From positions 1-51,054 of the IMG/VR virus record IMGVR_UViG_3300010352_001565: a stretch of 51,054 nucleotides of DNA, one strand, 5' to 3'. Every line of letters starts with the position of its first letter. Position 1 is the stretch's first letter. The translations under genes were made by a program, and so were the position numbers. Positions 3,309 through 43,923 of the stretch are shown here, one piece after another. Below the pieces are notes generated by a model. The model was given only the letters and a program-made list of their open reading frames with translations. It searched no databases and had not been told where the DNA came from. This DNA is from a virus.

Positions 3309-3997
3309 AAGATCTCTTTTTAGAGCGCGTCGCAGTTAGCATAGCGGATGCCGCTCGCGAATACTCTGGACTGTCTGTATTTTCAGATCCTGACATGGCG
3401 CGTCGCTGCCAGGTTGCGATGGGAAACCGTCAAGACATCAGCGACGACGCCCTGTCAGATCTAAATCTCGCTTTCGCGCCAAGAACTCCTCAAATAGCGC
3501 GGCAAGGCAGGTTGCTTTCGTGCTTCTGGAAAACCTATCCGTTCGCGCTTTCAAACGCACTCAGCAGACTGCTTGTCAATCCTCCATCTGACATCAACCC
3601 TGGAGAAGGATTTTCAATGACTCTTAAGACCCAGTCGTGGGTTGAAGGAATTCATGGTGCGTGCATATTTAACAGAGAGCTCACACCAATAGAGGTAGTT
3701 TCAATACCAGGGGCGTTCTCGTCTTTTTTCGACGACGTTACTGTTTTTTGGGACTACGGATTTGGAGAGGATTGGTTCCTCGGAACTAGCGTGGTTGTGG
3801 ACCGAATTATGCCAGGGTCAACGGTGACTCTTGTTCGACCGAGCGCGCATCACAACACCTGGATCGGTTGGAGTGGAATCGACCTGTCGTTTAAAAGACT
3901 CCTAGCGAGCATCAACAGCAAGTACAAGCTTCGCGAGCTGTCCGTGAACACGGTCGGAAACATCGAAGTTGCCATACTTGGAGTTGAAGCAAAATGA
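3305..3997 (+). CDS. Hypothetical protein
   Basis: 230-aa ORF with a GTG start overlapping the upstream stop and an ATGA junction to the next gene. No recognisable motif. Confidence 0.4.
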   Translation: MKDLFLERVAVSIADAAREYSGLSVFSDPDMARRCQVAMGNRQDISDDALSDLNLAFAPRTPQIARQGRLLSCFWKTYPFALSNALSRLLVNPPSDINPGEGFSMTLKTQSWVEGIHGACIFNRELTPIEVVSIPGAFSSFFDDVTVFWDYGFGEDWFLGTSVVVDRIMPGSTVTLVRPSAHHNTWIGWSGIDLSFKRLLASINSKYKLRELSVNTVGNIEVAILGVEAK

Positions 3998-5727
3998 GAC
4001 TTGGAGATTCTGGAGAAAGTGTACGTCAGCTGCAACAGTGCCTTAACCTCATAGGTGAAAGGGTCCCAGTGTCGGGACACTACTGCCAGCGGACAAAAGC
4101 GGCAGTAATGAGGTTCCAGCAGGCGAACGGGCTTCAGCAGGACGGCATTGTTTCTCAGAAGATATGTGACATGATGGTTCGACAGGCAGACACTCATCGC
4201 CTGAACCCTCCTGTCCGCGTGGAGCCGACGCCTGAAAAGAGGGAAGAAATGGGACGAGGCGTCTGGTCTGAATTCTCCCTGGATGGCCTTCCTGGCCTCC
4301 AGATTGTCATTACGGCTCACAACGCTGGCCCCTGGATAACCGATTGCCTCCTGAGCGTAAAACGCGCCATGCGTCATTTAAAGAGCGGGTGGAAAGTCCT
4401 GGTGGCTGATGACTCCAGCACGGATCACACGTACGCTCTCGTTTCTGAGCTTAATGGCCAATTTCCATCCCTGACTATAAAACGCTTTCCAAAATCTCGC
4501 AGCGTTGGCGCGGCAAGAAACAAGGCCATCAGCATGGCCATGGGCGACTCGACCAGAGAGTTTCCTGCCATCTGCATGGTTGACGCTGACGACACGCTGT
4601 CTGAGGACCACGGCACTCTGCTTCGCGCGATGGTAGACTCTGGAAGCCTTGCGGTCTTTGGCGACTATTTCAAAGGAAACGAACTCGTCATCGCCGCTCC
4701 TGAAAATCAGGTCCGAGGGAACATCAAATGTGGCGCGGTAATGTTCCACCACAGCCTCATTCCAGGAAACGGAGCTCTGTTTCGCGAAGACTTAGAGATC
4801 AACGAAGAAGCTGCTTTGTGGATGTCGTGGTTTAAGCGCGAGATCAACATGAAGGCCTGTCCTGGAACAGTGGTCTACAACTATAACATTCACGATGGGT
4901 CGGCGTCGAACCCGCTGGATTTGCAGTTTAAAGAGGCTGCGCTTAAAAAGTGGGCCTCGATAAGAACGTCCATCATGGACGCAGGAACTTCAATTTGCGA
5001 GCCTCTCGTGTCTTGCTTGATGCTGACCGGAAAATGCCCAGAACGGTTGCCGTTGGCCCGCGTCGCCATTCGCTGCTTTCTCGATCAGACGTGGCACAAC
5101 AAGCAGCTGGTGATTATCAATCACGGGGACACCCCTCTATCAACAGGAGATCCACGCGTTGTCGAAGTGATGACGACAAAAGGACCTGATGTTTCTCTTG
5201 GCGATTTGAGAAACATGAGCATCGACGCCGCCAGCGGAGAATGGTGCGTGCAGTGGGATGACGACGACTGGCACCACCCTACGCGCATTGCCCAGCAGAT
5301 GAAGGAAGCCAGGCATGACGCTCTGGTGACCTATCTCTGGCAGATCAGGTTGAACCTGGTCACCGGCTCGGCGTTTTATGACAAGATGGAAGGAGGTCAG
5401 CACATGTCGGTGCTATTCCACAGGTCAGTGGCTCACCGCTATCTAAAGCTTGAACGAGCAGAGGACACCGCTTTTGTAAAGAGCTTTAGCAGAATTATCG
5501 CAATTGATAACTCCATTCTAAACCCGTTCACAGACCCACTTCAGTACGTCAGGACTTACCACGGAAGAAACATCTGGGATGCATCACACATTATGCGCGG
5601 AAGCGACCAGAAGAACGTTGACCACCCCGCTGAGATGAAGCTGACGGAGTACCACGCCGACAAGGTGCGTGGTATTATTGAAACCTACCAGATCCAGCCA
5701 GGTTACACGGCTGGAACGAATGTGTAG
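3994..5727 (+). CDS. Peptidoglycan-binding domain fused to two GT-A (family 2-like) glycosyltransferase domains
   Basis: N-terminal GDSGESVRQLQQCLNLIG...QDGIVSQKICDMM fits the PG_binding_1 pattern. VITAHNAGPWITDCLLS...VLVADDSSTDHT...GAARNKAI...DADD is a GT2 signature. A second GT-like unit follows (VSCLMLTGKCPERL...WDDDDWHHP). Confidence 0.7.
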   Translation: MRLGDSGESVRQLQQCLNLIGERVPVSGHYCQRTKAAVMRFQQANGLQQDGIVSQKICDMMVRQADTHRLNPPVRVEPTPEKREEMGRGVWSEFSLDGLPGLQIVITAHNAGPWITDCLLSVKRAMRHLKSGWKVLVADDSSTDHTYALVSELNGQFPSLTIKRFPKSRSVGAARNKAISMAMGDSTREFPAICMVDADDTLSEDHGTLLRAMVDSGSLAVFGDYFKGNELVIAAPENQVRGNIKCGAVMFHHSLIPGNGALFREDLEINEEAALWMSWFKREINMKACPGTVVYNYNIHDGSASNPLDLQFKEAALKKWASIRTSIMDAGTSICEPLVSCLMLTGKCPERLPLARVAIRCFLDQTWHNKQLVIINHGDTPLSTGDPRVVEVMTTKGPDVSLGDLRNMSIDAASGEWCVQWDDDDWHHPTRIAQQMKEARHDALVTYLWQIRLNLVTGSAFYDKMEGGQHMSVLFHRSVAHRYLKLERAEDTAFVKSFSRIIAIDNSILNPFTDPLQYVRTYHGRNIWDASHIMRGSDQKNVDHPAEMKLTEYHADKVRGIIETYQIQPGYTAGTNV

Positions 5728-6587
5728 CGGTTAAGCGCCGTCGTGCTGATTCCCTCACCATCTCTTCCACCCGCGACTAGAGGTGTCTCTAAGCTAAATT
5801 TACGGTAAGGATTAGTAGTCGCGTAGAGAGGACCTACTTGAGACATCACCATTGACGCAATGGCGTCGGCGCGGCCTCGTTCAGGTCCTTGGAGAGACGT
5901 TTCGACTTCTTGGTGCGCAAGAAATTTATGGTCGACATCGACACACAGCACGTCTGATCCTTCAAACTTCAGCAAACCTGCCATGCGAGCGCGGTGAGTG
6001 TAGTCGCAGTGCTCTTCTCCAAACTTACCGAAGCGGGTGTCAAAGTAGCCGATTCGGTCAACCAGGTCGCGCGTGATTGAGATGGCGATTCCGGTCATTC
6101 GAGAAAGTATCTTGACAGTGTACCCATTCGACCTCGCAGATCTCCATCGATATGAGTCAGACGTGAAGTCGCAAAAGCAAAACATTCCAATTCCAAGGTC
6201 AGCGTGTGCTTTTCGATAGAAATCCTCGAAAGGACCACGAACCTCGATGTCATCGTTTATTATCACGAGGTGATCCGCTCTAATATGGCGCATCCACGCA
6301 ATCGCTTTGTTGGACTGAGCTGCCACACCGAGGTTTCTCCTTCCCATGAAAACTGAAATGTTCGGAAGCCACCCTGTGTACTGATCACTTTCGATGGAGT
6401 CAGCAAATCCTGACTTGACCTTTGAACCGCGAGTCAGCAGCGACTCGGTCTCATCCATTCCACCGCAGTCCTCAAAGACGGCCACGGGTGTTTTTCCGCA
6501 GTGGTCTTTGAGGCCTTTTAGGCAGGTTGCGAGTGATTCGACGCGGTTATATGTTAAAACGGCGATGGCTGACTTTGCACTGGTCAT
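5703..6587 (-). CDS. Glycosyltransferase family 2-like
   Basis: IAVLTYNRVESLATCLKGL...VFEDCGG...VIINDDIEV is a GT-A N-terminal signature. Its 3' end overlaps the previous gene by 25 nt (convergent). Confidence 0.65.
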   Translation of the reverse strand: MTSAKSAIAVLTYNRVESLATCLKGLKDHCGKTPVAVFEDCGGMDETESLLTRGSKVKSGFADSIESDQYTGWLPNISVFMGRRNLGVAAQSNKAIAWMRHIRADHLVIINDDIEVRGPFEDFYRKAHADLGIGMFCFCDFTSDSYRWRSARSNGYTVKILSRMTGIAISITRDLVDRIGYFDTRFGKFGEEHCDYTHRARMAGLLKFEGSDVLCVDVDHKFLAHQEVETSLQGPERGRADAIASMVMSQVGPLYATTNPYRKFSLETPLVAGGRDGEGISTTALNRYTFVPAV

Positions 6588-11751: not shown

Positions 11752-13020
11752 ATGCGCAGCTTGCGTGCCTTAAGGGGACCTCTTATGAAGAGTCCCGCGA
11801 TGATCGACCCTAGCGGAGTCGTGTATTCTGGAGAAGCCGTCTGGGACGCTCTTGACAAGAACCCCGAACTCGCCGCTGAGATTGAGGATGCGGGTCTGTA
11901 CGGAAACTACCACGACGTCTTCGCGGCCGTCACTGGGAGGGACATCGATTCCTATTTGCGAGATGGGTGGATTAGGTGGGCAGTTGGAGATCCGAGCAAA
12001 GACGAGGTATTTGTTCAGAGCTCACAAATCTCGCACCGGCAGCGGGCAGTTCTTGACCAATTCGCAGAAGATAACCCGTCTGTGAAGGTGACTTTCATCG
12101 GCTTGGTTCGAGAAGGGTGCGACGACACTTCAAAGCTTGGACTACCTCCAGAAGCTCGGACCTTCTCTAAGCTCAACTCCAGGAATGGAGGATTGGGTCC
12201 TAGGAAGCCCAAGGCCTACATTGACATGGTTGCAGCCATCACCAATCAAAAGAGCCGTAAGCATGGTTTCTGCAACAAGGATGGTGGCCAGAAGGTTCAG
12301 CATGCAATAAAAGAGTCCTTGGGATACATTGGAATGTTCTCAGGAGGAGGAATGGTCGTTCACGCCATTACAGCGGAGCAGGTTGACGACCATTCGTATG
12401 ACCACAGCGATGTTGGAAAAGCACTTGGAGCTACTGGACGATTCCGCTACAACCCCAACAGACCCGATGTTGTCGTGTGGAGCGACGAGCCGTCTAAGGA
12501 GCAGATGGAGGAAGTTGAAGACTTTCTGGCGCGGCGAGGGTTTAATCCATCAAAGCACAAAGTGTGGGCATGGGCCGACGGTGGACAAACACGGATTATT
12601 TCTAAAGAAGGTTCCCAAGATAGTTATGGCATGAATAATGAGTCTCTCGCAAGCAAACTGGTTGAGGAATTGATTGGAGACGAAAACGGGAAAAGCGGAA
12701 TTGAGATCGACGCCTTTATCCAGGAGCTGAGATCTGGAGGGTACGACCCTGAGCACGTTCGCGAGATGATCTCCGCGGCAACCAGCGCAAAGCGCTTGCT
12801 TGGCGGAGGCATTCAAGTCGTCACCAGCAACGAGCTTCAGGGAGCGGACATGATGGAGATGCTTGACCAGCTCGAAGCCCGCAGCGATCGCGCTGAAGCC
12901 GGCCAAGGTTTCGAGCGCGTCTTCCAATCTGGAGGAGCCCCATTCGCGCTTGAGTACATCACTCAGGGTGAGGACAACTTCACTGTTGTTTTCTTCACGA
13001 CCGCAGATCACCAGAAGTAA
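11752..13020 (+). CDS. Hypothetical protein (422 aa)
   Basis: Long ORF with balanced composition and no recognised motif. Confidence 0.45.
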   Translation: MRSLRALRGPLMKSPAMIDPSGVVYSGEAVWDALDKNPELAAEIEDAGLYGNYHDVFAAVTGRDIDSYLRDGWIRWAVGDPSKDEVFVQSSQISHRQRAVLDQFAEDNPSVKVTFIGLVREGCDDTSKLGLPPEARTFSKLNSRNGGLGPRKPKAYIDMVAAITNQKSRKHGFCNKDGGQKVQHAIKESLGYIGMFSGGGMVVHAITAEQVDDHSYDHSDVGKALGATGRFRYNPNRPDVVVWSDEPSKEQMEEVEDFLARRGFNPSKHKVWAWADGGQTRIISKEGSQDSYGMNNESLASKLVEELIGDENGKSGIEIDAFIQELRSGGYDPEHVREMISAATSAKRLLGGGIQVVTSNELQGADMMEMLDQLEARSDRAEAGQGFERVFQSGGAPFALEYITQGEDNFTVVFFTTADHQK

Positions 13021-14280: not shown

Positions 14281-14317
14281 AAATAAATGTTTACAAATTT
14301 CCGTTTCGTGATATAGT
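14281..14317 (+). promoter_or_regulatory. T4-early-type promoter: AAATAAAT upstream element, GTTTACA -35 (14289-14295), 16-nt spacer, TATAGT -10 (14312-14317), ATG 6 nt downstream
   Basis: Read directly. It is near-identical to the module at 28455-28492 (minus strand). A 7-bp inverted repeat GTAGAAC/GTTCTAC flanks it. Confidence 0.55.
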
Positions 14318-14323
14318 TCTACC

Positions 14324-14698
14324 ATGATTACGAACGAAACAGTTACCAGAGACAACATCGATAACGAAAGCTTCTACAACGTGGTTCAGCTTTGCAATAT
14401 CACTGGTTATGCTGATCCTGTGGCTGCTCTCAAATCCACTGGTGAGACTGTTCGCGTAACGCGAGACAACGGAGGAAACATTACTGGCGGCGAGCTGATC
14501 AGAAAGAGCGGCAACGAAAGCGCGAGAAACCTGTTCCGCTACATTCCTTCTCACAACGAATACTCCACGGTTGACGAAGCTGCCGCTGGAATGGAGAAAA
14601 CAGATACTGCTGTTGAGCAGCTTGTCAATGGAAAGTGGGTTCATTTTCGCACTCTTACCGCCCAGGACCACGCCGACGCCGCTTGGATGCAGGAATAA
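14324..14698 (+). CDS. Hypothetical early protein
   Basis: ORF starting 6 nt after the promoter -10. Confidence 0.45.
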   Translation: MITNETVTRDNIDNESFYNVVQLCNITGYADPVAALKSTGETVRVTRDNGGNITGGELIRKSGNESARNLFRYIPSHNEYSTVDEAAAGMEKTDTAVEQLVNGKWVHFRTLTAQDHADAAWMQE

Positions 14699-15488: not shown

Positions 15489-15749
15489 AATGGTGTTCTT
15501 ATTGTCGTCAGCGGCGGTCAACAAAACCTGTGGCGACAATTCAACATCTTTTGAATTTTAAGCTGGTAATCACGCCAGCGGGTGACCATATACTGGGCGC
15601 AGCCCGCCCGTTTAAGTGGGACTACGGTTAGCTGTGGTAGGGCTTCGCCCGAAACGATAACATTTATCGCTGAAGGCGCGGTGAGTCATCCCATCGCGCC
15701 TTTTAATTTTGCCGAGCAGCATAATCCACTGCTTGTTTCAAAAAGAGAA
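15489..15749 (+). ncRNA. Candidate structured non-coding RNA or leader. It has several GC-rich hairpins and ends at a terminator.
   Basis: Hairpins GCTGG-taatcac-CCAGC, GGGCG-cagc-CCGCCC and GGCGCG-N14-CGCGCC. There is no plausible ORF. The track ORF 15582..16328 runs through the terminator, so its N-terminus is spurious. Confidence 0.25.
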
Positions 15750-15780
15750 AGGCCCGGAGCGAAAGCTCCGGGCCTTTTTG
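15750..15780 (+). terminator. Rho-independent terminator
   Basis: GGCCCGGAGC-gaaa-GCTCCGGGCC followed by TTTTTG. Confidence 0.85.
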
Positions 15781-15791
15781 GTAGTTACGCC

Positions 15792-16328
15792 ATGCAAGCA
15801 GTTATAGGCGGGCACAATTTCGGAGTGAGAGCAGCGATCGTGATGCTGTTCACTACGCCCATTGCGGAACCGGGAAGGCAAACAGCTGGGAATCCTCCGA
15901 GTAACCCGCCTGTCGCCACGGTCTCCAACGTTGGAGATTCACTCAAGTATCTTTTCTCGAGCCCAAACGGGGCATTCACCAGGAACATCTACGTTGACCC
16001 GAGTGGAGAGATTGTTGATGAAGTGGTCGACAACACTGATTTCAGCAGCAAAATCATCCTGGATGACCTGAGGTTGTTTTTCGTATCTCCTAATGGCCTA
16101 TACCTCAGAGTGCTTGGGGTCGCAGACGACGGCACCCCAACTGACTGCGTTATTGATGCTCCTGTCTTGCACGCGACAACCGATGCGCTTAAAATTCAGA
16201 ATTTGATCCGACAGTGCTTCGCCGTTCCAGGTGAAAGCAACTACCTTCACATAGGGGTCGACGACCTAGGAGACCCTTTCAACACCATCGAACCTTTCAG
16301 GGTAGCGCAGCAGCCCGTGTCATCTTAG
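15792..16328 (+). CDS. Hypothetical protein with an N-terminal hydrophobic segment. The start was reassigned to the ATG after the terminator.
   Basis: MQAVIGGHNFGVRAAIVMLFTTPIA. The upstream in-frame region contains the terminator. Confidence 0.45.
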   Translation: MQAVIGGHNFGVRAAIVMLFTTPIAEPGRQTAGNPPSNPPVATVSNVGDSLKYLFSSPNGAFTRNIYVDPSGEIVDEVVDNTDFSSKIILDDLRLFFVSPNGLYLRVLGVADDGTPTDCVIDAPVLHATTDALKIQNLIRQCFAVPGESNYLHIGVDDLGDPFNTIEPFRVAQQPVSS

Positions 16329-23665: not shown

Positions 23666-24382
23666 ATGACGGCTCGTAGTATCATCGAACAGATCTTTTT
23701 CACAGGCGCGGTGTTTTTCGACACCTCTGGCCGCGGCTATATCGGTTCGAATGGGGTCTTCTTCATGCGCCACGACGGATCAAAGATCATTCCAGCTCTC
23801 GAGAAGTTTGTCAACCTGTGGTCGCGCTCAAAGAAAAATCGCGAGACCCTGATGATGGACCCGCTAGCATCTGCAGTAAGCATGATTGAGAGGCACGGAC
23901 TCGTGGTTATGTTTCATGGAATCGCCATGTACGACGTGGTGATAAGCCGCGACCGTCCAAAACTGACGCAAGATCAGCTCAACTGGATCGACGCGCACTT
24001 CTCGCAGGGTCTCGGAGAAAGCGTCCTCTGGTTCAAGACTATCGACGCTCCTCCTACCAAGACCACGGTGGGCGCACTTCTGTATGGCGAAAAGGAGCCG
24101 CGTAGAATGGACAAGGTAATTCGCCAAAAAACGAAGTGGGAAAAGAGGACGCCGGCAGACGACGAGTTTGACGCTATGGTGAACGACTACGCTGCGTCCG
24201 TTAAGCCTGACAACCGACCAGCCCACCAAAAACCGCAGCCCATCACGCACGCGCCGCCTCCTGGGTACGATCCAAAGGCGTCCGGAAAGAAGGATGTCCT
24301 TCGCATGCGTTGGACAAAAGGATTTCCAGCTCCAGCCAAGTGGTCTCCTAACCAAGATCCGAAGCTGACTGTGCACTCATGA
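23666..24382 (+). CDS. Hypothetical protein. The start is ambiguous: the track start at 23648 shares the CATG palindrome with the divergent gp46-like start.
   Basis: ORF with a plausible Met at MTARSII. Its stop overlaps the next start (ATGA). Confidence 0.4.
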   Translation: MTARSIIEQIFFTGAVFFDTSGRGYIGSNGVFFMRHDGSKIIPALEKFVNLWSRSKKNRETLMMDPLASAVSMIERHGLVVMFHGIAMYDVVISRDRPKLTQDQLNWIDAHFSQGLGESVLWFKTIDAPPTKTTVGALLYGEKEPRRMDKVIRQKTKWEKRTPADDEFDAMVNDYAASVKPDNRPAHQKPQPITHAPPPGYDPKASGKKDVLRMRWTKGFPAPAKWSPNQDPKLTVHS

Positions 24383-25704
24383 AGCCCATCTTGCAAAAAT
24401 TTACCTGGGCTGAAGTCTTCAGCGGTCCAGTGTTCGAGCGGCTAAGCTTTGCCCAGCTATTGCAGCGCAGCGAACCTCGCCGAAAAGTCAGAGCGCTGAC
24501 AGTCCGCGGACCACCGTTAAAGATCGCAACCGGATCTGACTCGATCTATTACATTTTCAACTTTAAGTCATTCCCGAGTACTACCGGTTTCCGCCACCAC
24601 GGGTTCATTAAGTTCCTTCGTCCTCGCCGACAAAAGCGACTTCAGGACGTTGAGTGCATTGTGGACTGCACATGCCCCGACTACAAGTACCGCTGGGCGT
24701 GGACAAACAAGCAGCGCGGGTCAAGCGTCGTGGGCGGCCAGAGCATGAACAAGGCCTGGAACAGAGCTCCGCGCATCACGAATCCAGCCGGTAAAGTTGG
24801 GTTGTGCAAGCACTTGATTGCTCTCCAAGAGTACATCGGAAATTCAATGTCTCCTGAGGTGTTTCCGTCTAGCGGCGGAAGCGAAGACCAGGATAAAGCG
24901 ATGCGGAAGTTGCTCAAGTACTCAAATGACCGCTGGGTCAACGTTCCGCCAGGTACGAGCGCGCAGGCGCTTGACCGAGAAGCCGAGGTGCGCGCAAACG
25001 CGCAGCGAAGAAACAGAGGCCAGGAGCCGTCAAACGCTCCGAGCGCTCCACCTGCCGTGGGAGATAACGCAGGAGTCGAAGCTCCAGACAAAACTTCGAA
25101 TCCTGAAAACCCGCGAAACCCAAACAACACACCAAACAGCGACACGCCTAATGGCGAACCCGAGCCAGGTGAAACTGAGGAGGGACTAGTAGTTAATGCA
25201 CATATGCAAGCTTTGAAAGACGCCCACAAATTGGTTGAAGAGCTGGAAGACAGTTTTCAAAATGAACTGAGTGGACCTGAAGCTGGTTCAGCCGGTGGAC
25301 CCGCTGGTCCTGACGGCGGATTTGGATCCGAACCCACGCCTCCTCAAGGTGGCCAAGACCAGGGTGAAGAAGCTCTCAGCCTGCTGAGAGACATCGCCTC
25401 TGGAATCCAGCGCCTCTCTACCGCTTTGGAAAATCCTGCGATGAACCCTGCTGCAGCCCCTGCGGCACCCGCTGCTCCTGCTGCTCCCGGTGCCCCTGGC
25501 GAGCTCGCTGTTCCTGAATACCCTTCTGGTGGCGAAGCTCCTGGCGCTCCTGCTGACGACCTCGATGGTCTCGAAGGTGGCGAAGGTGGCGAGGGTGGAG
25601 AGGGTGAGGGTGAGGGAGATGAAGGTGAAGAGGACGAACCACCCGCAAAACCCGCTCGGCGCCGCAGCTTCCGCTCTCCTGACGCCAGCAGAAACGCCGA
25701 ATAA
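24379..25704 (+). CDS. Putative SWIM-like zinc-finger protein with an acidic low-complexity C-terminal tail
   Basis: C-x-C (VDCTCPDY) ... C-x-H (LCKHLIAL) preceded by a beta-rich segment. The C-terminus has GEGGEGGEGEGEGDEGEED and PAAPA repeats. Confidence 0.4.
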   Translation: MKPILQKFTWAEVFSGPVFERLSFAQLLQRSEPRRKVRALTVRGPPLKIATGSDSIYYIFNFKSFPSTTGFRHHGFIKFLRPRRQKRLQDVECIVDCTCPDYKYRWAWTNKQRGSSVVGGQSMNKAWNRAPRITNPAGKVGLCKHLIALQEYIGNSMSPEVFPSSGGSEDQDKAMRKLLKYSNDRWVNVPPGTSAQALDREAEVRANAQRRNRGQEPSNAPSAPPAVGDNAGVEAPDKTSNPENPRNPNNTPNSDTPNGEPEPGETEEGLVVNAHMQALKDAHKLVEELEDSFQNELSGPEAGSAGGPAGPDGGFGSEPTPPQGGQDQGEEALSLLRDIASGIQRLSTALENPAMNPAAAPAAPAAPAAPGAPGELAVPEYPSGGEAPGAPADDLDGLEGGEGGEGGEGEGEGDEGEEDEPPAKPARRRSFRSPDASRNAE

Positions 25705-25709
25705 ATTTT

Positions 25710-26201
25710 ATGCACCCCGGAGAATACGCACAACCGCTGAATCGGACCACCTCAGGTTCGGCTCCTATCGAGTCGGGCTTTGTTGGTCTTCGCTTCCGTG
25801 CGTCTCAAAAACCGACAGGCACCACTCAAAGCCTCTGTCAGGTTCTGCTTGAGAACACTGGGAAGTCACAATTCACCGTGCTCATTCAGGGCACAGACAA
25901 TCACTCGCCTGCCGGCACGAGAGCGCAGCTGAGTGAAGTGGTCCTCATGCCTGGCGGCCAGAAGACAGTCAGCGTCACGCCAGTCACGAAGTACATCGAA
26001 TTCGAAGGCTCTGCGGGATCTGGAAATCTTAAAGTCCAGATTACCTCTGAAATCCGCTGGGAGCCTCTCGCGTTCTCGAAAGTTGACACTGAGTATGACA
26101 TCCTGGGTCTGACCCAAGCGGCTGACGCCGATCTGGATGCTTCTCGCGGTGCAACTACAGTATTTGGTCAATCAGGGAGTGCGGGTGAGGTGACCAGTTA
26201 G
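25710..26201 (+). CDS. Hypothetical beta-rich protein
   Basis: 163-aa ORF followed by a strong terminator. Confidence 0.4.
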   Translation: MHPGEYAQPLNRTTSGSAPIESGFVGLRFRASQKPTGTTQSLCQVLLENTGKSQFTVLIQGTDNHSPAGTRAQLSEVVLMPGGQKTVSVTPVTKYIEFEGSAGSGNLKVQITSEIRWEPLAFSKVDTEYDILGLTQAADADLDASRGATTVFGQSGSAGEVTS

Positions 26202-26228: not shown

Positions 26229-26258
26229 GAAGCTCCTCCTTGTGGAGGAGCTTTTTAG
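26229..26258. terminator. Rho-independent terminator between convergent genes
   Basis: AGCTCCTCC-ttgt-GGAGGAGCT followed by TTTTT. Confidence 0.75.
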
Positions 26259-26261
26259 CAT

Positions 26262-27548
26262 CTACCCGCGTGAAGGATCGCGAACTTCGCGAGAGGTCGG
26301 ACCGATCGTAGACGACCCCACAGCCAGAAGGCTGATTTGCTGCCCTTGCGCCTCGTTCGCGCTAGAAACTATATTCGTGTTACCGGCATCTCGCATAGCC
26401 TGTTGGCTAGCGCGATTCGTCTGAAGCTCACCTCGATGCAGGGTGAAGGCGCTAACGAGGTCTCCCTTGTCGATGACATGCGTGGACTGAGATACACTGT
26501 AATATCCAGCCCACGAAGTGTCGGCGCCACTCTTACCAAGCTTGATGTCGATGAAGTCGTTAATGCGGAGAAGCGGGGTTTTTGTGGTCTTGAGCTCAAG
26601 AGAATACATCGCTGATCTCTGCTGCTCATATTTGTTTTGGATGATGTTTTCTCCCTCAACAGCCCCATTTTCACCCACGTGGTACGAGAAAATGCGGTCG
26701 TACTCTTGAGGGATTTCCGGGGCTGAGTTCCCGATCTTTAGGACTCGTGAACTGTCAGATCGAACAGCTTGGGTCTCTCCCGTCATCGGGTTGTGAGCAA
26801 CCATCCTGACAACAGCCCCAGCCGCCCCATCCTCGCATTGCACCTGTGAGCGGTCGCTCTGAATCAGCGACAGGCTGTTAGTTGGACCAAAGTACGACAG
26901 CTCCTTGAGCTCGGATTGGTAATCTGGAGAGTGGAAATGAAGCACGCTGTCCTTCACGTACAGCCTGAAGTTCCCGCGTCCTTTTTCGTTCACCGCTCTT
27001 GAGATGCACCTGTCGACAATGAAAGTGAAGTCGGAGATCCGAGGCTGAACGAGGCTAAATTTTCCGATGGTTGGCTCGACAATCGCTTCGATCTGGTGTT
27101 CGGCGGCGATCGCCTTGACCATGTCGCTAATCAGCCCCTGCCGCGAAACAATCTTGTGCGCTCGGCTGATCTTCCATAACGGGTCAGCTGTGCATATTTT
27201 GACGTGGTGGGTCCCGTTACCGTATGGGATGGCTGAAAATTCCGTAATGAAATGGCGCTGCCACGGAAGCCATTGCATGGCGCGTGGTGTTCCAATCCCA
27301 AACCTGATCTTGCACTCAGGCTCACCAGACGACATTGCTGGTTGGACTACTCTGATGACTTCCTCGTCACTTGAGGCAAGGATGGTGACTGACTCGGACC
27401 ATGCATTGATCCGTTCCTTGATAGTAGTAGTGCAATGGTCAGCAGTTCCGCGTACGTCGACGACAGACTGCTGACCATTGACGGTTACTCCGATTTGAAA
27501 GATGCACTGAGCGTTCCCGCTGTTCGCAATGGTCGTTGATGTCGGCAC
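26262..27548 (-). CDS. Baseplate hub protein, P2 gpD / T4 gp27-like
   Basis: LISDMVKAIAAEHQIEAIVEPTIGKFSLVQPRISDFTFIVDRCISRAVNEKGRGNFRLYVKD parallels P2 gpD LGAIVKAIATRNRLEARVAPSLAGIKIPHIDQSQESDAKFLTRLAERNGGEVSVKMGKLLFLK. Confidence 0.5.
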   Translation of the reverse strand: MPTSTTIANSGNAQCIFQIGVTVNGQQSVVDVRGTADHCTTTIKERINAWSESVTILASSDEEVIRVVQPAMSSGEPECKIRFGIGTPRAMQWLPWQRHFITEFSAIPYGNGTHHVKICTADPLWKISRAHKIVSRQGLISDMVKAIAAEHQIEAIVEPTIGKFSLVQPRISDFTFIVDRCISRAVNEKGRGNFRLYVKDSVLHFHSPDYQSELKELSYFGPTNSLSLIQSDRSQVQCEDGAAGAVVRMVAHNPMTGETQAVRSDSSRVLKIGNSAPEIPQEYDRIFSYHVGENGAVEGENIIQNKYEQQRSAMYSLELKTTKTPLLRINDFIDIKLGKSGADTSWAGYYSVSQSTHVIDKGDLVSAFTLHRGELQTNRASQQAMRDAGNTNIVSSANEAQGQQISLLAVGSSTIGPTSREVRDPSRG

Positions 27549-27561
27549 TTCCTAACTAGCG

Positions 27562-28275
27562 TCACTCTTCTTCGTGCTCGCACAGGGCAACTCTTGGGCG
27601 GTTGAAGAAATCGCGGTGCTCAGACGGCTCATCTGGAACTGACCAGACGTGCTCAAGTCCCTTTTCAGTAACCTTGTAAGCGTCGCCCATCCCAAGAGTG
27701 TGGGTGGTATGCTGAACGCGCGCCAACTGAGTTGGGATGATGCACTGGCGCGATGCCACGAGCGTCAGATAGTCGGTGTCGCTGAATTTCCACGTCCATG
27801 CCTGCAGCGACTGATTTTTGCGATACACGAACATCTCGCCACCTTCGAACCAAATCAGCCCAACTGATCCGTGCGCTCTCTGCAGAGCGCGGGTCTTGAT
27901 AAGAGGCCCTAAGCACTCGCTGTCGACCACCACGCCGGGTCGGATCAGGTTGTAATTGGAGATGATGCCGTTGTGCGCATAGACAACCCCTTCAAACTCA
28001 AACGGGTGAGCGTTGACGTCGGTGTGCGCACCATGTGTGGCATAGCGGACGTGGCCAAATCCGAGTCGGCTGACGCGGGCGGCACGCTCGATGCGGTGAT
28101 TGCAGTTGCGCAGAAACACCGCCGGGTGAATTGCTCGCTTGAACACTTTCAGGGGGTGCCCTGTCTCAGCGTAGGCAAGGCCAACAGAGTGCGGTCCGTA
28201 TGGAATCGATCTCCCATACATCTCACGCAGCAGCGGGGTGCTGATTTTACCAGCCCATCCAATAATCGCGCACAT
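27562..28275 (-). CDS. Stand-alone class-II glutamine amidotransferase / Ntn-hydrolase domain protein. The start was reassigned to MCAIIGW.
   Basis: Met-Cys N-terminus (MCAIIGWAG), then GHVRYATHG..NAHPF..YAHNGIISNY..VVDSEC, which is the GATase_2 signature. The track start at 28335 adds 20 non-conserved residues and overlaps the upstream small ORF. Confidence 0.65.
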   Translation of the reverse strand: MCAIIGWAGKISTPLLREMYGRSIPYGPHSVGLAYAETGHPLKVFKRAIHPAVFLRNCNHRIERAARVSRLGFGHVRYATHGAHTDVNAHPFEFEGVVYAHNGIISNYNLIRPGVVVDSECLGPLIKTRALQRAHGSVGLIWFEGGEMFVYRKNQSLQAWTWKFSDTDYLTLVASRQCIIPTQLARVQHTTHTLGMGDAYKVTEKGLEHVWSVPDEPSEHRDFFNRPRVALCEHEEE

Positions 28276-28280
28276 ATTAT

Positions 28281-28448
28281 TTAAAAAGAAGAGTTGCCAC
28301 TTTGAACGACCCGAACAAGCAGAGCGCTGCTCCAACTGAGGCTATCAGCGCACCAGCAGAATCCGGTGAGAGATAGAAGCACAAGCGATAGTATTACAGT
28401 GAAATAGTCGTCGAGTTTATCCACGACGTTGCATTTGTTCGCGTTCAT
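28281..28448 (-). CDS. Small membrane protein (55 aa), first gene after the promoter
   Basis: ATG 7 nt downstream of the TATAGT -10. Hydrophobic core FTVILSLVLLSLTGFCWC. The TAA stop is 5 nt before the MCAIIG start. It is below the 60-aa ORF-track cutoff. Confidence 0.4.
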   Translation of the reverse strand: MNANKCNVVDKLDDYFTVILSLVLLSLTGFCWCADSLSWSSALLVRVVQSGNSSF

Positions 28449-28454
28449 ATCAAT

Positions 28455-28492
28455 ACTATATCACGAAACAAGAATTTGTAAACATTTATTTT
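28455..28492 (-). promoter_or_regulatory. T4-early-type promoter (minus strand): AAATAAAT, TGTTTACA, 16-nt spacer, TATAGT
   Basis: Minus-strand reading AAATAAATGTTTACAAATTCTTGTTTCGTGATATAGT. It differs from the 14281-14317 module at only 3 positions. Confidence 0.55.
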
Positions 28493-28953
28493 TAAAGTCC
28501 CAATTCTCGCTTCCTGTCTAGAACTGTTTGGACGGCCTGGTTTCCTACGCTGTCACCAGCGTTGATCCTCACCAGTTTCCATTCGTGGCCAGAGGCATAC
28601 TGGTCTTTCATCTTGTCGCGATTCACTTGGCGACCTGAGCGGTGATAGCGCCGCGAGTCAATTTCAATGAGAAGCCGCAGGTTAGGAAATGCAAAGTCGT
28701 AGATGAACCCACCCATCTCGTATTCCGCCTTGGCGTAGATCTTCGCAACTTGGAGAGCTTCGCGCACTTTACGCTCAGGGTAGCTCTCGTTGTTTTGGCG
28801 AGTGCCGCGCGTAATCTCAGGAGTCTCAAGGCAGTGAAGACAGATCCAGTAGTAAGAGTTGAACCTTGACCTGCTCTTGAACTTCTTGCAGAGACTCGCC
28901 GCTTTCTGCTTGCCGCACTTACGGCATAGCTGAGGCAAGGAATCAGTACTCAT
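28492..28953 (-). CDS. DUF559 (Vsr-like) endonuclease-fold protein with an N-terminal zinc ribbon, homing-endonuclease-like
   Basis: CRKCGKQ...CLHC, then GGFIYDFAFPNLRLLIEIDSRRYH...NRDKMKDQYASGHEWKLVRI matching the DUF559 pattern. Confidence 0.55.
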   Translation of the reverse strand: MSTDSLPQLCRKCGKQKAASLCKKFKSRSRFNSYYWICLHCLETPEITRGTRQNNESYPERKVREALQVAKIYAKAEYEMGGFIYDFAFPNLRLLIEIDSRRYHRSGRQVNRDKMKDQYASGHEWKLVRINAGDSVGNQAVQTVLDRKRELGL

Positions 28954-29231
28954 CGACTGGGTCGAATAATTCGCGGATTTTATCGAGGACGGGGTCTGTC
29001 AGCTCGAGGGCATAGAGCTCGATGGACGCCTTGGAAACCCCGAGAGCGTCGAAGAATTGTTGAACCGTGGATTCGTCTTGAAGCAGCTTCTCGCACTCTT
29101 CCTTGTTGAATTCAAGGTTTCCTTGCGCAGTAGCAACGATCATGCGAGACGACTCAATCGTACCGACGGTTTCGTCTCCAAGAGCTTCAAGTTCCTCCAA
29201 CAAATCACCAATTTCAGCAGGCATTTTCATA
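28943..29231 (-). CDS. Small acidic protein; start taken at MKMPAEIG
   Basis: The upstream 55 residues of the track ORF are low-complexity (R/C/Q-rich). TTTACG-17-GATAAC-6-ATG gives a promoter-like context at 29232-29270. Confidence 0.35.
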
Positions 29232-35574: not shown

Positions 35575-35614
35575 CACTATAGCATGCGAATAAAACTTTG
35601 TAAACATTTATTTG
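35575..35614 (-). promoter_or_regulatory. T4-early-type promoter (minus): AAATAAATGTTTACA, 17-nt spacer, TATAGT
   Basis: Minus-strand reading AAATAAATGTTTACAAAGTTTTATTCGCATGCTATAGT. Confidence 0.5.
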
Positions 35615-42575: not shown

Positions 42576-42850
42576 ATTCCAACAGTTTCGTCAAAGATCT
42601 TTGTTTTTGCAGCGGCCGTCTTGATGTAGATCTTGAGACGGACAGACGCCTCAGGGATCATGTCGATCAGCTTGAGAATCAAGTTAATAAGCTCCTGAAT
42701 GTGGTCCCCTAGCCACTTTAGGACGTTCGGAAGATCCGGAAGCTTGATAGTGGGGATTGCCGGTATCCACGCCCCTAAGCTAAACGTAGGGATCGGGATG
42801 GTCACCGAAATGATCAGGTTCAAACCGTTTGCTTCAATCATCTGGGTCAT
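42572..42850 (-). CDS. Hypothetical small protein downstream of the spike gene
   Basis: 92-aa ORF coupled by start/stop overlap on both sides. Confidence 0.35.
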   Translation of the reverse strand: MTQMIEANGLNLIISVTIPIPTFSLGAWIPAIPTIKLPDLPNVLKWLGDHIQELINLILKLIDMIPEASVRLKIYIKTAAAKTKIFDETVGI

Positions 42851-43923
42851 ACAAAAGTAAATCCTGTAGCAGGGTCTATGGTTAAGGTGTGTGCTCCAGC
42901 TTGAATTATGATTGGAACTGGAGTAGGGCCAGATTTTATCGTGACTCCGGCCGGAGTGGTCTGGACAGTCAGCTGTGATCCTAGCGCTGATCCTACCGTA
43001 AATCCAGCGGTGTCAAAATTGATGGAGTTGCACATGAACGTAACGCTGCTCAGCCCCGTGTTATCCACGGTGATAGAAGCACCGGGAAGCCCGGTGGTTA
43101 ATGGCGCGGCGTAAAGCACTACCTTCTGACCGTCAACGCTCACGTACGACCCAGTAGACGCAGAGATCGCTCCAGCTCCATCTCCAAGCGCAATGGCTCC
43201 GCCTCCGCTGTCTGTCACTGCAAATTTTCCATTTTTCAGCGACAGCGTGGAGCATTCTTCGTCACCAGAGAAAATTGAAAAACCCTTGCCTGCCTGTAGG
43301 ATGTAGTCCTCATCAATAATAAGGGCCATGTCCTTCGTCGTGTAGGTGATCGCGACATCGGCCGAGAACCGCATCCTCTTTATCGCCTCAAAATCAAAGT
43401 CGTTAGCAAGCACCACCCACTGCTCACCGATGTTGTAGGTCAGGTCCTCGTTAATGTGGAGAAGACCACCGTTGCACTTGTCATCCAGCATCCAGGCGTT
43501 TCCTTTCGCCGAGATTTCAAGGATTGACTCGCTGTTAAACTCGATGGTGTGGCCATACCTGGTCAGCGCAGCGCGCTTAGGAAGCCCTGTCTTTTCATCA
43601 TGCTGGTGCAGCTTAAGATTCTCAGTTCCCGCAATGGTTTGATTACCCCACTCCCAGATTGGCTTCTCTGGCTCAAGATTCAAAAACCTGACGTACACTT
43701 GGTCGCCAGGTTCTGGGAGCCAGGAGATACCACCGGATGCAGGAGAGTTGCCAGCGGGCATGCCGACAGGAAGCGCCCATGGAATGTCCTTGGTGCTGAC
43801 AGACCCGAAATCGCTCTTGGACGGGCCATAGATGTGCGGAACACGGACCTTGAGCCGACCCATCTTCAACGGATCGGCGTTATCTTCAACAGTACCAATA
43901 AATGTCCCGCTTAGCTGACTCAC
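42847..43923 (-). CDS. Baseplate central spike, P2 gpV / T4 gp5 N-domain-like, with a C-terminal beta-helix-like extension
   Basis: GTVEDNADPLKMGRLKVRVP...WLPEPGDQVYVRFLNLEPEKPIWEWG fits the Phage_base_V OB-fold pattern G.V..dp...GRvrVr.p...W..P..G..V.V.F..Gd...P...G. Confidence 0.7.
   Translation of the reverse strand: MSQLSGTFIGTVEDNADPLKMGRLKVRVPHIYGPSKSDFGSVSTKDIPWALPVGMPAGNSPASGGISWLPEPGDQVYVRFLNLEPEKPIWEWGNQTIAGTENLKLHQHDEKTGLPKRAALTRYGHTIEFNSESILEISAKGNAWMLDDKCNGGLLHINEDLTYNIGEQWVVLANDFDFEAIKRMRFSADVAITYTTKDMALIIDEDYILQAGKGFSIFSGDEECSTLSLKNGKFAVTDSGGGAIALGDGAGAISASTGSYVSVDGQKVVLYAAPLTTGLPGASITVDNTGLSSVTFMCNSINFDTAGFTVGSALGSQLTVQTTPAGVTIKSGPTPVPIIIQAGAHTLTIDPATGFTFV

What the first reader, a model, noticed from the sequence alone, without database searches (positions are those of the whole stretch)
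27562..28448. Early operon: 55-aa membrane protein, stand-alone class-II glutamine amidotransferase (Ntn hydrolase) with mis-called start, and baseplate hub gene
The true GATase start is MCAIIGW (ATG at 28275), which gives the Met-Cys N-terminus required for Ntn autoprocessing and catalysis. The conserved GHVRYATHG, HNGIISNY and DSEC blocks are present, but there is no synthetase or partner domain. A previously unannotated small hydrophobic ORF (28281..28448) lies between the promoter and the GATase gene, 5 nt upstream of its start. Free-standing GATase-II/Ntn domains act as amidohydrolases, so in a phage this could be a metabolic or anti-defence hydrolase (for example degrading a gamma-glutamyl or other small-molecule signal). 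This is an inference only.
Basis: partly seen in the sequence, partly recalled or inferred. Interest (0 to 1): 0.65.

Follow-up and report, generated by a model that had tools for sequence, protein, structure and literature searches.

The report
Stand-alone early phage glutamine amidohydrolase gene
A large T4-like phage known only from metagenomes carries a short, catalytically intact glutamine-splitting enzyme with no partner domain; the gene call is correct, similar enzymes are already annotated in many phages, and what it does during infection is still unknown.

Summary
The sequence observation holds. ATG 28275 opens a 237-aa protein, MCAIIGW… (27562..28275, minus strand). It is a complete class-II (Ntn, GlmS/PurF-type) glutamine amidotransferase domain with every glutamine-site residue conserved and no synthase domain.

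The 55-aa hydrophobic ORF (28281..28448) exists. It starts 6 nt after the -10 box of a sigma70-like promoter, and its codon usage fits this phage.

- **Start and annotation:** public metagenome gene calls already use the Met-Cys start and already call the small ORF.
- **Processing:** no autoprocessing is needed, because the Cys directly follows the initiator Met.
- **Operon:** the "operon" with the hub gene is not conserved. That 428-aa gene is moderately supported as gpD/gp27-like. It has its own TAGTTA-N4-GTG start signal and lies on the opposite strand in four related lineages.

New context:
- The enzyme is a core gene, 41-64% identical across lineages, of an uncultured T4-superfamily phage clade.
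- In relatives the promoter sits directly upstream of the enzyme gene, which suggests a leaderless mRNA.
- In the window, a strain-variable cassette sits between promoter and enzyme. A 55-aa ORF and a 75-aa ORF alternate there in otherwise identical genomes.
- 46 of 87 relatives end in Tyr-x-Gly-Gly. The window protein does not.

No amidoligase, QueC or other partner gene was found nearby. The physiological role is unresolved. This is a new member of a known kind, of moderate interest.

The parts
27562..28275 (-). Gene for a 237-aa stand-alone class-II (Ntn, GlmS/PurF-type) glutamine amidotransferase domain. Catalytic Cys2. Glutamine-site residues R77, N102-G103 and D118. Folded core is residues 1-212; the C-terminal tail of about 25 residues is disordered and acidic (…CEHEEE).
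28281..28448 (-). 55-aa ORF with one predicted transmembrane helix (residues 16-34). Its ATG lies 6 nt after the -10 box, so the mRNA is probably leaderless. Its stop lies 5 nt before the GATase ATG.
   Evidence: codon score 0.078 in frame, hydropathy peak 2.11. No homologues found; it forms a singleton cluster.
28277..28433 (.). Strain-variable cassette of 157 nt. In contigs L001 and L004 it is replaced by 272 nt that encode an unrelated 75-aa ORF. The flanks are 100% identical over 10.7 kb on one side and 99.98% over 9.7 kb on the other.
28455..28482 (-). Sigma70-like promoter: TTTACA, 16-nt spacer, TG-extended TATAGT. A near-identical copy (25/28) lies at 14290..14317 (+) and a looser copy at 35576..35604 (-). 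The same promoter type sits directly upstream of the GATase ATG in relatives.
27553..27558 (-). TAGTTA element 4 nt upstream of the GTG start of the 428-aa gene. It belongs to a clade-wide TAGTTA-N3-5-start signal.
26262..27548 (-). 428-aa protein, probably a gpD/gp27/VgrG-type baseplate hub. It is adjacent to the GATase in all lineages examined, but in either orientation.
   Evidence: homologues and synteny; hhalign against P2 gpD, 80.9%, E = 1.3e-5; 9gtr_q, E = 0.08. The AlphaFold model failed (pLDDT 39). No Pfam or PHROG hit.
28492..28953 (-). 153-aa protein with a Zn-ribbon plus a DUF559/MTES_1575 (Vsr-like) endonuclease domain. It lies directly upstream of the promoter and is conserved at this position in 8 of 11 lineages (39-49% identity).
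28943..29224 (-). Conserved acidic protein of about 93 aa, the first gene of the block that diverges from the tail module. The mechanical 151-aa ORF from TTG 29398 is probably too long.
26236..26250 (+). G+C-rich hairpin followed by TTTTT, in the 60-nt gap between the converging genes 25710..26201 (+) and 26262..27548 (-). It looks like a terminator for the plus-strand gene; there is no T-run on the minus strand.

Best explanation
The gene at 27562..28275 (minus strand) encodes a catalytically competent, free-standing class-II (N-terminal nucleophile, GlmS/PurF-type) glutamine amidohydrolase. It is a core gene of an uncultured clade of large T4-superfamily myophages.

**Proposed mechanism**
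1. The host RNA polymerase transcribes the gene from a sigma70-like promoter, probably early. In the window phage, an inserted 55-aa membrane-protein ORF takes the start site 6 nt after the -10 box, which probably gives a leaderless mRNA. The enzyme gene follows 5 nt after that ORF's stop, so it is probably translated by re-initiation.
2. Host methionine aminopeptidase removes Met1 and exposes Cys2 as the N-terminal nucleophile.
3. R77 and D118 hold the alpha-carboxylate and alpha-amino groups of L-glutamine or of a gamma-glutamyl-X compound.
4. Cys2 attacks the gamma-amide, with N102-G103 acting as the oxyanion hole. This forms a gamma-glutamyl thioester and releases ammonia (or the amine X).
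5. Water then releases glutamate.

**Shown here:** the fold, the residues, the start codon, the promoter motif and the conservation.

**Inferred:**
- Enzymatic activity and early timing.
- That the ammonia is simply released, making this a stand-alone glutaminase or gamma-glutamyl amidase that reshapes the host glutamine or gamma-glutamyl pool. I favour this slightly over hand-off of ammonia to a separately encoded partner.

The biological purpose is not established.
For: **Start codon.** All 52 family members that reach the N-terminus have Cys at position 2. The public gene call P0001 is the identical 237-aa protein.

**Enzyme class**
- Pfam GATase_6 scores above its gathering threshold.
- PHROGs 4736 and 18128 match the N-terminal domain.
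- NCBIfam GlmS and PurF models match the N-terminal part.
- The family profile matches the GlmS glutaminase domain at E = 5e-17.
- The AlphaFold model has pLDDT 93.9, and residues 1-212 form the whole Ntn fold. Closest solved structures are the GlmS glutaminase domain 1xff (TM 0.70), PurF (0.72) and EgtC (0.67).

**Active site.** C2, R77, N102/G103 and D118 align with GlmS C1, R73, N98/G99 and D123. They are invariant in 63 of 63 sequences, apart from the truncated N-termini.

**Stand-alone architecture.** Family members are mostly 215-300 aa with no second Pfam domain.

**No partner gene nearby**
- No amidoligase or ATP-grasp homologue (direct homology search) in the window, and no synthase-type (SIS, QueC, asparagine-synthase) domain among the window ORFs scanned with Pfam or PHROGs.
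- No relevant Pfam hit on the called genes in 20 kb of extra flank.
- No amidoligase or ATP-grasp homologue within ±10 kb of 14 related loci, and no relevant Pfam hit on the called genes of the five loci for which gene calls were returned.

**Selection.** Identity between lineages is 41-64%, as high as for the tail tube and sheath.

**Expression**
- The sigma70-like promoter is at 28482..28455.
- The same promoter type lies 5-9 nt upstream of the GATase ATG in L014, L006/L021, L018 and L015.
Against: - No activity data exist for this or any closely related phage protein. Literature searches found none.
- Sequence and fold are closer to the amidotransferase type (GlmS, PurF) than to known free hydrolases. 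EgtC gives TM 0.67, with NCBIfam EgtC at 19 bits against a cut-off of 219. YafJ-like structures 1te5 and 3mdn give TM about 0.5.
- The family keeps an aromatic residue (Y, W or F) at the position of GlmS Trp74 (pattern).
- 46 of 87 members carry a conserved C-terminal Y-x-G-G tail on a disordered linker.
- These three features fit a trans-acting partner at least as well as a free hydrolase.
- Only about 71 kb was inspected, whereas the longest contig carrying this protein is 222,710 bases, so a partner could be encoded elsewhere.
- A free glutaminase would drain the amide donor for nucleotide synthesis, which is not obviously useful to a phage.
Confidence: 0.5

Rival explanations
1. Split amidotransferase. 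The protein is the glutaminase subunit of a two-protein enzyme. It docks on a separately encoded phage or host synthase, perhaps through its C-terminal tail, and channels ammonia to that partner.
For: - The closest sequence and structure matches are the glutaminase domains of GlmS and PurF, not free hydrolases.
- An aromatic residue is kept at the GlmS Trp74 channel-gate position (the H[TV]R[YWF][AG]THG pattern).
- The disordered C-terminal linker ends in conserved Y-x-G-G in 46 of 87 relatives. Other distant stand-alone phage GATases end in aromatic tails.
- Only about a third of the genome was inspected.
Against: - No candidate synthase was found in 71 kb of this phage or within ±10 kb in 12 related loci.
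- Class-II amidotransferases are almost always fused to their synthase domain (established knowledge).
- The window protein itself lacks the Y-x-G-G tail.
Confidence: 0.27
2. Member of the phage amidoligase/ATP-grasp/GATase system predicted by Iyer et al. 2009 (phiEco32, LUZ24/PaP3, 7-11 and HMO-2011-type phages). That system is proposed to build or trim a peptide-like tag or metabolite.
For: - The best matches among cultured phages are these proteins.
- In Vibrio phage 1.262.O and Salmonella phage 7-11, the GATase gene lies next to or within about 2 kb of a COOH-NH2 ligase gene, with an ATP-grasp gene nearby in 7-11.
- Amidoligase and GATase genes are reported together in OM43 phage genomes (PMC10580990).
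- Acidic tails such as …HEEE resemble the substrates of RimK-type tailing enzymes (inference).
Against: - Those proteins are 480-650 aa and only 22-32% identical, mostly over the N-terminal 144 residues.
- No amidoligase or ATP-grasp homologue was found in the window or in the 14 close-family loci. Only 2 of about 80 IMG/VR loci had one, and both are distant relatives.
Confidence: 0.07
3. DNA-base hypermodification enzyme. The protein supplies the amide nitrogen for a modified base, as in Gat-QueC (7-deazaguanine/archaeosine pathway) or the GATases found in thymidine-hypermodification clusters.
For: - GATases (PF13522) are listed among the thymidine-hypermodification machinery that co-occurs with phage T-dioxygenases (PMC13229309 and its preprint).
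- The Gat-QueC protein of Pantoea phage Vid5 is a structural match (rank 18).
- A Vsr-like endonuclease and glycosyltransferases are encoded nearby.
Against: - No QueC, QueD, QueE, FolE, DpdA, P-loop 5-hmdU kinase, aa:DNA transferase or TET/JBP hit in any scanned ORF of the window, the extra flanks or the related loci.
- The GATase is not fused to QueC.
Confidence: 0.07
4. Anti-defence or host-takeover hydrolase that destroys a specific gamma-glutamyl or amide-bearing host molecule.
For: - The gene has an early-type promoter.
- It sits next to a hot-swappable accessory-gene slot, where a 55-aa ORF and a 75-aa ORF alternate in isogenic genomes.
- It lies in a small block of probably early genes that includes a nuclease.
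Against: - No known defence signal carries a gamma-glutamyl or glutamine-like moiety (own knowledge; nothing relevant).
- Anti-defence genes are usually patchy in distribution. This gene is core and as conserved as tail proteins.
Confidence: 0.09

Closest known systems
Glutaminase (N-terminal) domain of GlmS, glucosamine-6-phosphate synthase (PDB 1xff), and of PurF
   Same: - N-terminal Cys directly after Met.
- Motifs R-[WY]-A-T-H-G, H-N-G-I-I and D-[ST]-E.
- Four-layer Ntn fold, TM 0.70-0.72.
- Profile E = 5e-17.
   Different: - No isomerase or PRTase domain, and none encoded nearby.
- The core is shorter, at 212 residues.
- The C-terminal half is divergent.
- A family-specific near-invariant Cys121 and a disordered tail are present.
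Phage 'glutamine amidotransferase' proteins linked to amidoligase genes (PHROG 4736/18128; phiEco32, LUZ24/PaP3, 7-11, CW02, Vibrio 1.262.O)
   Same: - Phage-encoded.
- Homologous N-terminal GATase-II domain.
- Best structural matches in BFVD, TM 0.73-0.76.
- Function also not tested experimentally.
   Different: - These proteins are 437-657 aa with extra C-terminal regions.
- In the two examples examined here (Vibrio 1.262.O and 7-11), a COOH-NH2 ligase gene lies within about 2 kb, with an ATP-grasp gene nearby in 7-11.
- Identity is only 22-32%.
- No such neighbours are present here.
Free-standing class-II GATase-like amidohydrolases: EgtC (PDB 4zfj), YafJ-like PA1307 (1te5) and SPO2029 (3mdn)
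   Same: - Single-domain architecture of about 230-270 aa.
- N-terminal Cys.
- Ntn fold.
   Different: - Weaker similarity: TM 0.51-0.67 and 13-16% identity. NCBIfam EgtC scores 19 bits against a cut-off of 219.
- No ergothioneine gene context.
Short stand-alone 'Gn_AT_II domain' proteins of uncultured Caudovirales in BFVD (for example A0A6J7WYZ1, 235 aa, and A0A6J5MM44, 253 aa)
   Same: Same size and single-domain architecture, phage-encoded, TM 0.71-0.73.
   Different: - Only 18% identity.
- Not the same family.
- Also uncharacterised.
P2 gpD, T4 gp27 and the VgrG N-terminal hub domain (for the neighbouring 428-aa gene)
   Same: - hhalign against P2 gpD gives probability 80.9%, E = 1.3e-5, over residues 90-183.
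- The best PDB match is a VgrG-like phage hub protein.
   Different: - No Pfam or PHROG hit.
- The AlphaFold model failed.
- The OB-fold spike (Phage_base_V) is a separate gene at 42847..43923.

Membership tests
Class-II (Ntn, PurF-type) glutamine amidotransferase domain (Pfam GATase_6/GATase_4; MEROPS C44) | Catalytic Cys as the first residue after the initiator Met (or after a propeptide) | tested here: met
   The protein starts MCAIIGW. All 52 aligned homologues that reach this column have Cys. It aligns to GlmS Cys1.
Class-II (Ntn, PurF-type) glutamine amidotransferase domain (Pfam GATase_6/GATase_4; MEROPS C44) | Glutamine-site residues: Arg73, Asn98-Gly99 (oxyanion hole) and Asp123 in GlmS numbering | tested here: met
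   R77, N102-G103 and D118 are invariant in 63 of 63 sequences. One search confirms positions 1-114 independently against PDB sequences.
Class-II (Ntn, PurF-type) glutamine amidotransferase domain (Pfam GATase_6/GATase_4; MEROPS C44) | Four-layer alpha-beta-beta-alpha Ntn fold | tested here: met
   The AlphaFold model has pLDDT 93.9. Foldseek gives 1xff E = 2e-14, TM 0.70, and PurF TM 0.72.
Class-II (Ntn, PurF-type) glutamine amidotransferase domain (Pfam GATase_6/GATase_4; MEROPS C44) | Score above the curated family threshold | tested here: met
   GATase_6 scores 28.7 bits against a cut-off of 27, but only residues 70-112 match. GATase_4 scores 19.3 against 23, below threshold.
Class-II (Ntn, PurF-type) glutamine amidotransferase domain (Pfam GATase_6/GATase_4; MEROPS C44) | Glutamine hydrolysis activity | not testable with these tools
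   Needs an enzyme assay.
Complete glutamine-dependent amidotransferase (GlmS, PurF, AsnB, GltS) | Fused or adjacent synthase/acceptor domain | tested here: not met
   The protein is 237 aa with no second domain. No SIS, PRTase or Asn_synthase hit in the ORFs scanned in the window or flanks, or on the called genes of the related loci.
Phage amidoligase/ATP-grasp/GATase system (Iyer et al. 2009) | COOH-NH2 ligase (Amidoligase_2/GCS2-like) and/or ATP-grasp gene beside the GATase gene | tested here: not met
   A phmmer/hmmsearch run with the Vibrio 1.262.O and 7-11 amidoligase and ATP-grasp proteins found no hit in the window or the 14 close-family loci. The rest of the genome was not seen; the longest contig carrying this protein is 222,710 bases.
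Gat-QueC / 7-deazaguanine DNA modification | GATase fused to QueC, with DpdA, FolE, QueD and QueE genes | tested here: not met
   No fusion. None of these families was hit in any scanned ORF.
Thymidine-hypermodification cluster | 5-hmdU P-loop kinase (PF18751), aa:DNA transferase (PF18724), TET/JBP or dUMP hydroxymethylase nearby | tested here: inconclusive
   None was found in about 71 kb or in the related loci. Most of the genome was not inspected, and not every small ORF was scanned with Pfam.
EgtC/YafJ-type stand-alone amidohydrolases | Sequence membership (TIGR03442 EgtC) and ergothioneine gene context | tested here: not met
   19.1 bits against a cut-off of 218.65. There is no EgtB or EgtD context. 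The fold resemblance is only TM 0.67.
gpD/gp27/VgrG-type baseplate hub (428-aa neighbour) | Homology to the hub N-terminal domains | tested here: inconclusive
   hhalign against P2 gpD gives 80.9%, E = 1.3e-5, over 93 columns. PDB 9gtr_q gives E = 0.08. There is no Pfam hit, and the AlphaFold model is unusable.

The most novel reading that the evidence does not exclude
This clade's stand-alone GATase may not be a housekeeping metabolic enzyme. It could be an early effector that works through its C-terminal tail.

In most relatives a disordered linker ends in an exact Tyr-x-Gly-Gly carboxy-terminus, and in two it is followed by a short acidic extension. That layout resembles ubiquitin-like proteins and type II CBASS CD-NTases, which E1/Cap2-type enzymes adenylate and conjugate.

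The enzyme could therefore be conjugated to, or act as a decoy for, a host or phage conjugation system. It would then deliver glutaminase or gamma-glutamyl-transfer chemistry to a specific target. The hot-swappable small-ORF slot beside it would be an anti-defence cassette site.

The window protein has lost the GG tail and ends …CEHEEE, so at best it would be a derived form.
Probability: 0.07. Interest if true: 0.75.

Novelty: new member of a known kind. Interest (0 to 1): 0.35.

Why it matters
Phage genes annotated "glutamine amidotransferase" are common: 499 IMG/VR stretches matched in one scan, and there are several PHROG families. I found no experimental characterisation of any of them.

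This family is a clean case for study:
- It consists of a single domain with an intact active site.
- It is a core gene in a clade of large T4-like phages, under selection as strong as that on the tail proteins.
- It has an early-type promoter.

If its substrate or partner were identified, that would show why many phages carry a bare glutamine-hydrolysing domain. Candidate roles include rewiring nitrogen or glutamine metabolism, modifying a base or a protein, and counter-defence.

The side observations may matter more to phage biologists than the enzyme call itself:
- A clade-wide TAGTTA-N4-start signal.
- Start codons 5-9 nt after the -10 box of the early-type promoters, implying leaderless mRNAs.
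- A cassette swap between otherwise identical genomes.

Tried and rejected
**Searches that found no relatives**
- Megablast of the region against cultured phages found nothing.
- A tblastn search with the 428-aa protein against phages found nothing.
- A scan of 185,579 GTDB species genomes found only GlmS-like N-terminal matches, so there is no cellular or prophage member.
- The last homologue search, on the 153-aa endonuclease, returned only the query itself.

**Structure and domain work that led nowhere**
- AlphaFold on the 428-aa protein with a 4-sequence alignment gave pLDDT 39. The model was unusable, so no fold search was run on it.
- Pfam on ten longer relatives (366-520 aa) showed no recognisable C-terminal domain.

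**Tests for the known phage GATase systems**
- Searches with the amidoligase and ATP-grasp proteins were negative in the window and in all close loci.
- In that run, the Vib_62 and 7-11 gp103 queries hit 56-57 loci. I took these to be hits on the GATase ORFs themselves, and so uninformative; I did not check this.

**Extending the genome**
- Adding 10 kb at each end found UvsX-like RecA, Gp23, Peptidase_S77, Portal_T4, gp25 and a DEAD helicase, but no partner.

**Literature**
- Searches found no characterisation of stand-alone phage GATases.
- The NARP3 paper does not mention glutamine.
- The Iyer 2009 paper is not held.

**Ideas considered and rejected**
- A link to the old report that T4 gp28 is a folyl-polyglutamate gamma-glutamyl hydrolase in the baseplate. 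A class-II site needs a free alpha-amino group on the gamma-glutamyl moiety, and folyl-polyglutamates lack one.
- A split GlmS. No SIS-domain gene was found.
- The TTG at 28335 as the start. It would bury the catalytic Cys 20 residues inside the protein and overlap the small ORF.

**Other negatives**
- No tRNA genes and no Rfam families were found in the window.
Full report
**1. What is in the sequence**

On the minus strand the mechanical ORF runs 27562..28335 from a TTG. The in-frame ATG at 28275 gives MCAIIGW…, 237 aa. The 55-aa ORF occupies 28281..28448 and stops 5 nt before that ATG. A 428-aa ORF (26262..27548) starts 13 nt after the enzyme's stop.

A sigma70-like promoter lies at 28482..28455: TTTACA, a 16-nt spacer and TATAGT, with TG before the -10 box. 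The pattern TTTACA-N15-18-TATAGT occurs three times in the window, against none in 100 shuffles. The copy at 14290 (+) is 25/28 identical to this one. In both tight copies an ATG lies 6 nt after the -10 box.

**2. The enzyme**

- Pfam GATase_6 is just above threshold: 28.7 against 27 bits, residues 70-112 only.
- PHROGs 4736 and 18128 match residues 1-144.
- NCBIfam GlmS and PurF models match the N-terminal part.

A homologue search returned the identical 237-aa protein (P0001), on contigs up to 222,710 bases. It also returned 62 stand-alone relatives of about 210-370 aa.

In the 63-sequence alignment, R77, T80, N102, G103 and D118 are invariant. All 52 sequences that reach the N-terminus have Cys2. 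The family profile matches the GlmS glutaminase domain at E = 5e-17, with Cys aligned to Cys1. The mapping is C2=C1, R77=R73, Y78=W74, N102/G103=N98/G99 and D118=D123.

AlphaFold gives pLDDT 93.9. Residues 1-212 form the whole Ntn fold, and the last 25 residues are disordered. Foldseek ranks the GlmS glutaminase domain first (1xff, TM 0.70). PurF follows (0.72), then EgtC (0.67), then YafJ-like proteins (about 0.5).

The start at 28275 is therefore right. Public gene callers already use it. No autoprocessing is needed, because removal of Met exposes the Cys, as in E. coli GlmS and PurF (established knowledge).

**3. The phage and the neighbourhood**

The window comes from a T4-superfamily myophage. 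It carries:
- a Gp23-type capsid protein, a Peptidase_S77 prohead protease and a tail sheath;
- a Phage_base_V spike and an SbcC-like protein;
- in the flanks, Portal_T4, gp25 and a UvsX-like RecA.

No cultured phage is close. The capsid protein is 26-30% identical to those of SP-15, HSE3 and others. No member of the enzyme family occurs in 185,579 species genomes.

Across 11 lineages the gene order is conserved:
- tube, sheath and further tail genes, ending with a 186-aa gene;
- then, on the other strand, a 93-aa acidic protein;
- a Zn-ribbon/DUF559 endonuclease, present in 8 of 11 lineages;
- variable small ORFs;
- the GATase;
- the hub-like gene of about 430 aa, in either orientation.

The GATase is 41-64% identical between lineages. 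That is as conserved as the tube and sheath, and more conserved than the hub-like protein at 30-39%.

**4. Expression**

In L014, L006/L021, L018 and L015 the same promoter type lies directly upstream of the GATase ATG, with 5-9 nt between the -10 box and the ATG. The likely ancestral state is therefore a leaderless or near-leaderless early mRNA for the enzyme.

In the window, the 55-aa ORF occupies that start and the enzyme follows its stop. Contigs L001 and L004 are 100% and 99.98% identical to the window on either side. Between window positions 28277 and 28433, however, they carry 272 nt that encode an unrelated 75-aa ORF. This is a cassette swap in isogenic genomes.

Codon usage supports both small ORFs: 0.078 and 0.186, against 0.195±0.096 in frame and -0.39±0.18 off frame. 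The 55-aa product has one hydrophobic helix. It has no homologues.

**5. The hub gene and the "operon"**

The 428-aa family has no Pfam or PHROG hit, and its AlphaFold model failed. hhalign against P2 gpD gives 80.9% probability, E = 1.3e-5. The best PDB sequence match is a VgrG-like phage hub at E = 0.08, over the same region. "Baseplate hub" is therefore moderately supported.

The gene is preceded by TAGTTA-N4-GTG. Of 15 TAGTTA sites in the window, 11 lie 3-5 nt before the start of an ORF of at least 60 aa. Control hexamers give 0-1. The signal recurs in relatives. The hub gene also lies on the opposite strand in L005, L006, L018 and L043. The three genes are therefore not a conserved operon.

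**6. Function**

The intact glutamine site argues for hydrolysis of glutamine or of a gamma-glutamyl-X compound through a Cys2 thioester.

No partner was found:
- no amidoligase or ATP-grasp gene;
- no QueC/DpdA set and no thymidine-hypermodification genes in about 71 kb or in the related loci.

In cultured phages the distant homologues are 480-650 aa and lie close to a COOH-NH2 ligase gene. That is a different architecture.

Three features leave a trans partner open:
- the GlmS/PurF-type affinity;
- the retained aromatic residue at the Trp74 position;
- the conserved C-terminal Tyr-x-Gly-Gly in 46 of 87 relatives, absent from the window protein, which ends …CEHEEE.

I favour a free glutaminase or gamma-glutamyl amidase (0.5) over a split amidotransferase (0.27). 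The physiological role is unknown.

**7. Novelty**

Stand-alone GATase-II proteins are already annotated in many phages. I found no experimental study of any of them. This is a new, well-delimited family of a known kind.

Noticed in passing
window 11742+, 12621+, 14981+, 15782+, 18270+, 27558-, 29235+, 40604-, 43933-, 47487+, 49734+; also L005, L006, L010, L011, L014, L018, L043: TAGTTA followed 3-5 nt later by ATG or GTG. Of 15 TAGTTA sites in the window, 11 open ORFs of at least 60 aa; same-composition control hexamers give 0-1. The motif recurs across the clade, always before the first tail-module gene. It looks like a phage-specific (late?) promoter or initiation signal that gives leaderless mRNAs. 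There is no T4-type TATAAATA in the window.
   Followed up: partly
window 14290..14317 (+) and ORF 14324..14698 (+): A near-identical copy (25/28, plus shared upstream AAATAAATG) of the GATase-block promoter, again with an ATG 6 nt after the -10 box. Codon scoring favours the 124-aa plus-strand ORF (0.297) over the longer overlapping 137-aa minus-strand ORF (-0.012).
   Followed up: partly
window 28277..28433 compared with L001 9728..9999 and L004: Cassette swap between otherwise identical phage genomes. A 55-aa membrane ORF is replaced by an unrelated 75-aa ORF. Both start at the same ATGAACG and end just before the GATase ATG. Other lineages carry different small ORFs here, for example a 62-aa two-helix protein in L010.
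   Followed up: yes
C-termini of family proteins P0005-P0092; L068: 46 of 87 family members end exactly in Tyr-x-Gly-Gly. Two have YKGG followed by an acidic extension. Ten, including the window protein, have acidic tails. A distant 261-aa phage GATase (L068) also ends in YQGG. This is unexplained.
   Followed up: partly
window 28492..28953 (-): The Zn-ribbon plus DUF559/MTES_1575 endonuclease looks like a homing endonuclease. However, it is kept at the same position in 8 of 11 lineages at 39-49% identity, as conserved as core genes. It may be a domesticated early nuclease rather than a mobile element.
   Followed up: partly
window 12631 (inside 11752..13020) and 15792 (inside 15582..16328): TAGTTA-N4-ATG sites lie in frame inside two ORFs. 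One suggests an internal start that gives a 129-aa C-terminal product. The other suggests that the true start of the second gene is 15792 (178 aa, not 248).
   Followed up: no
L043 9989..10003: In this relative the catalytic Cys is not preceded by ATG (…V-S-I-A-C-A-I-F-G-W). A GTG four codons upstream would give a short propeptide that needs removal, as in B. subtilis PurF. Alternatively it is an assembly error.
   Followed up: no
window 3994..5727 (+) and 5703..6587 (-): A 577-aa protein combines an N-terminal peptidoglycan-binding (PG_binding_1) domain with a family-2 glycosyltransferase domain. It sits next to a second glycosyltransferase, just upstream of the head genes. This is an unusual fusion of unknown role.
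   Followed up: no
window 24379..25704 (+): The 441-aa protein has a long low-complexity C-terminal half that is rich in Pro, Ala, Gly and Glu (…PAAAPAAPAAPAAPGAPGE…GGEGGEGGEGEGEGDEGEEDE…). Only the N-terminal part of about 230 residues is conserved in relatives.
   Followed up: no
L006 1..475, L010 1..1146, L018, L019, L021, L043: Several relatives encode a NodU/CmcH-type carbamoyltransferase of about 577 aa, some 8-10 kb from the GATase, beyond the tail tube gene. It is absent at that position in the window phage.
   Followed up: no
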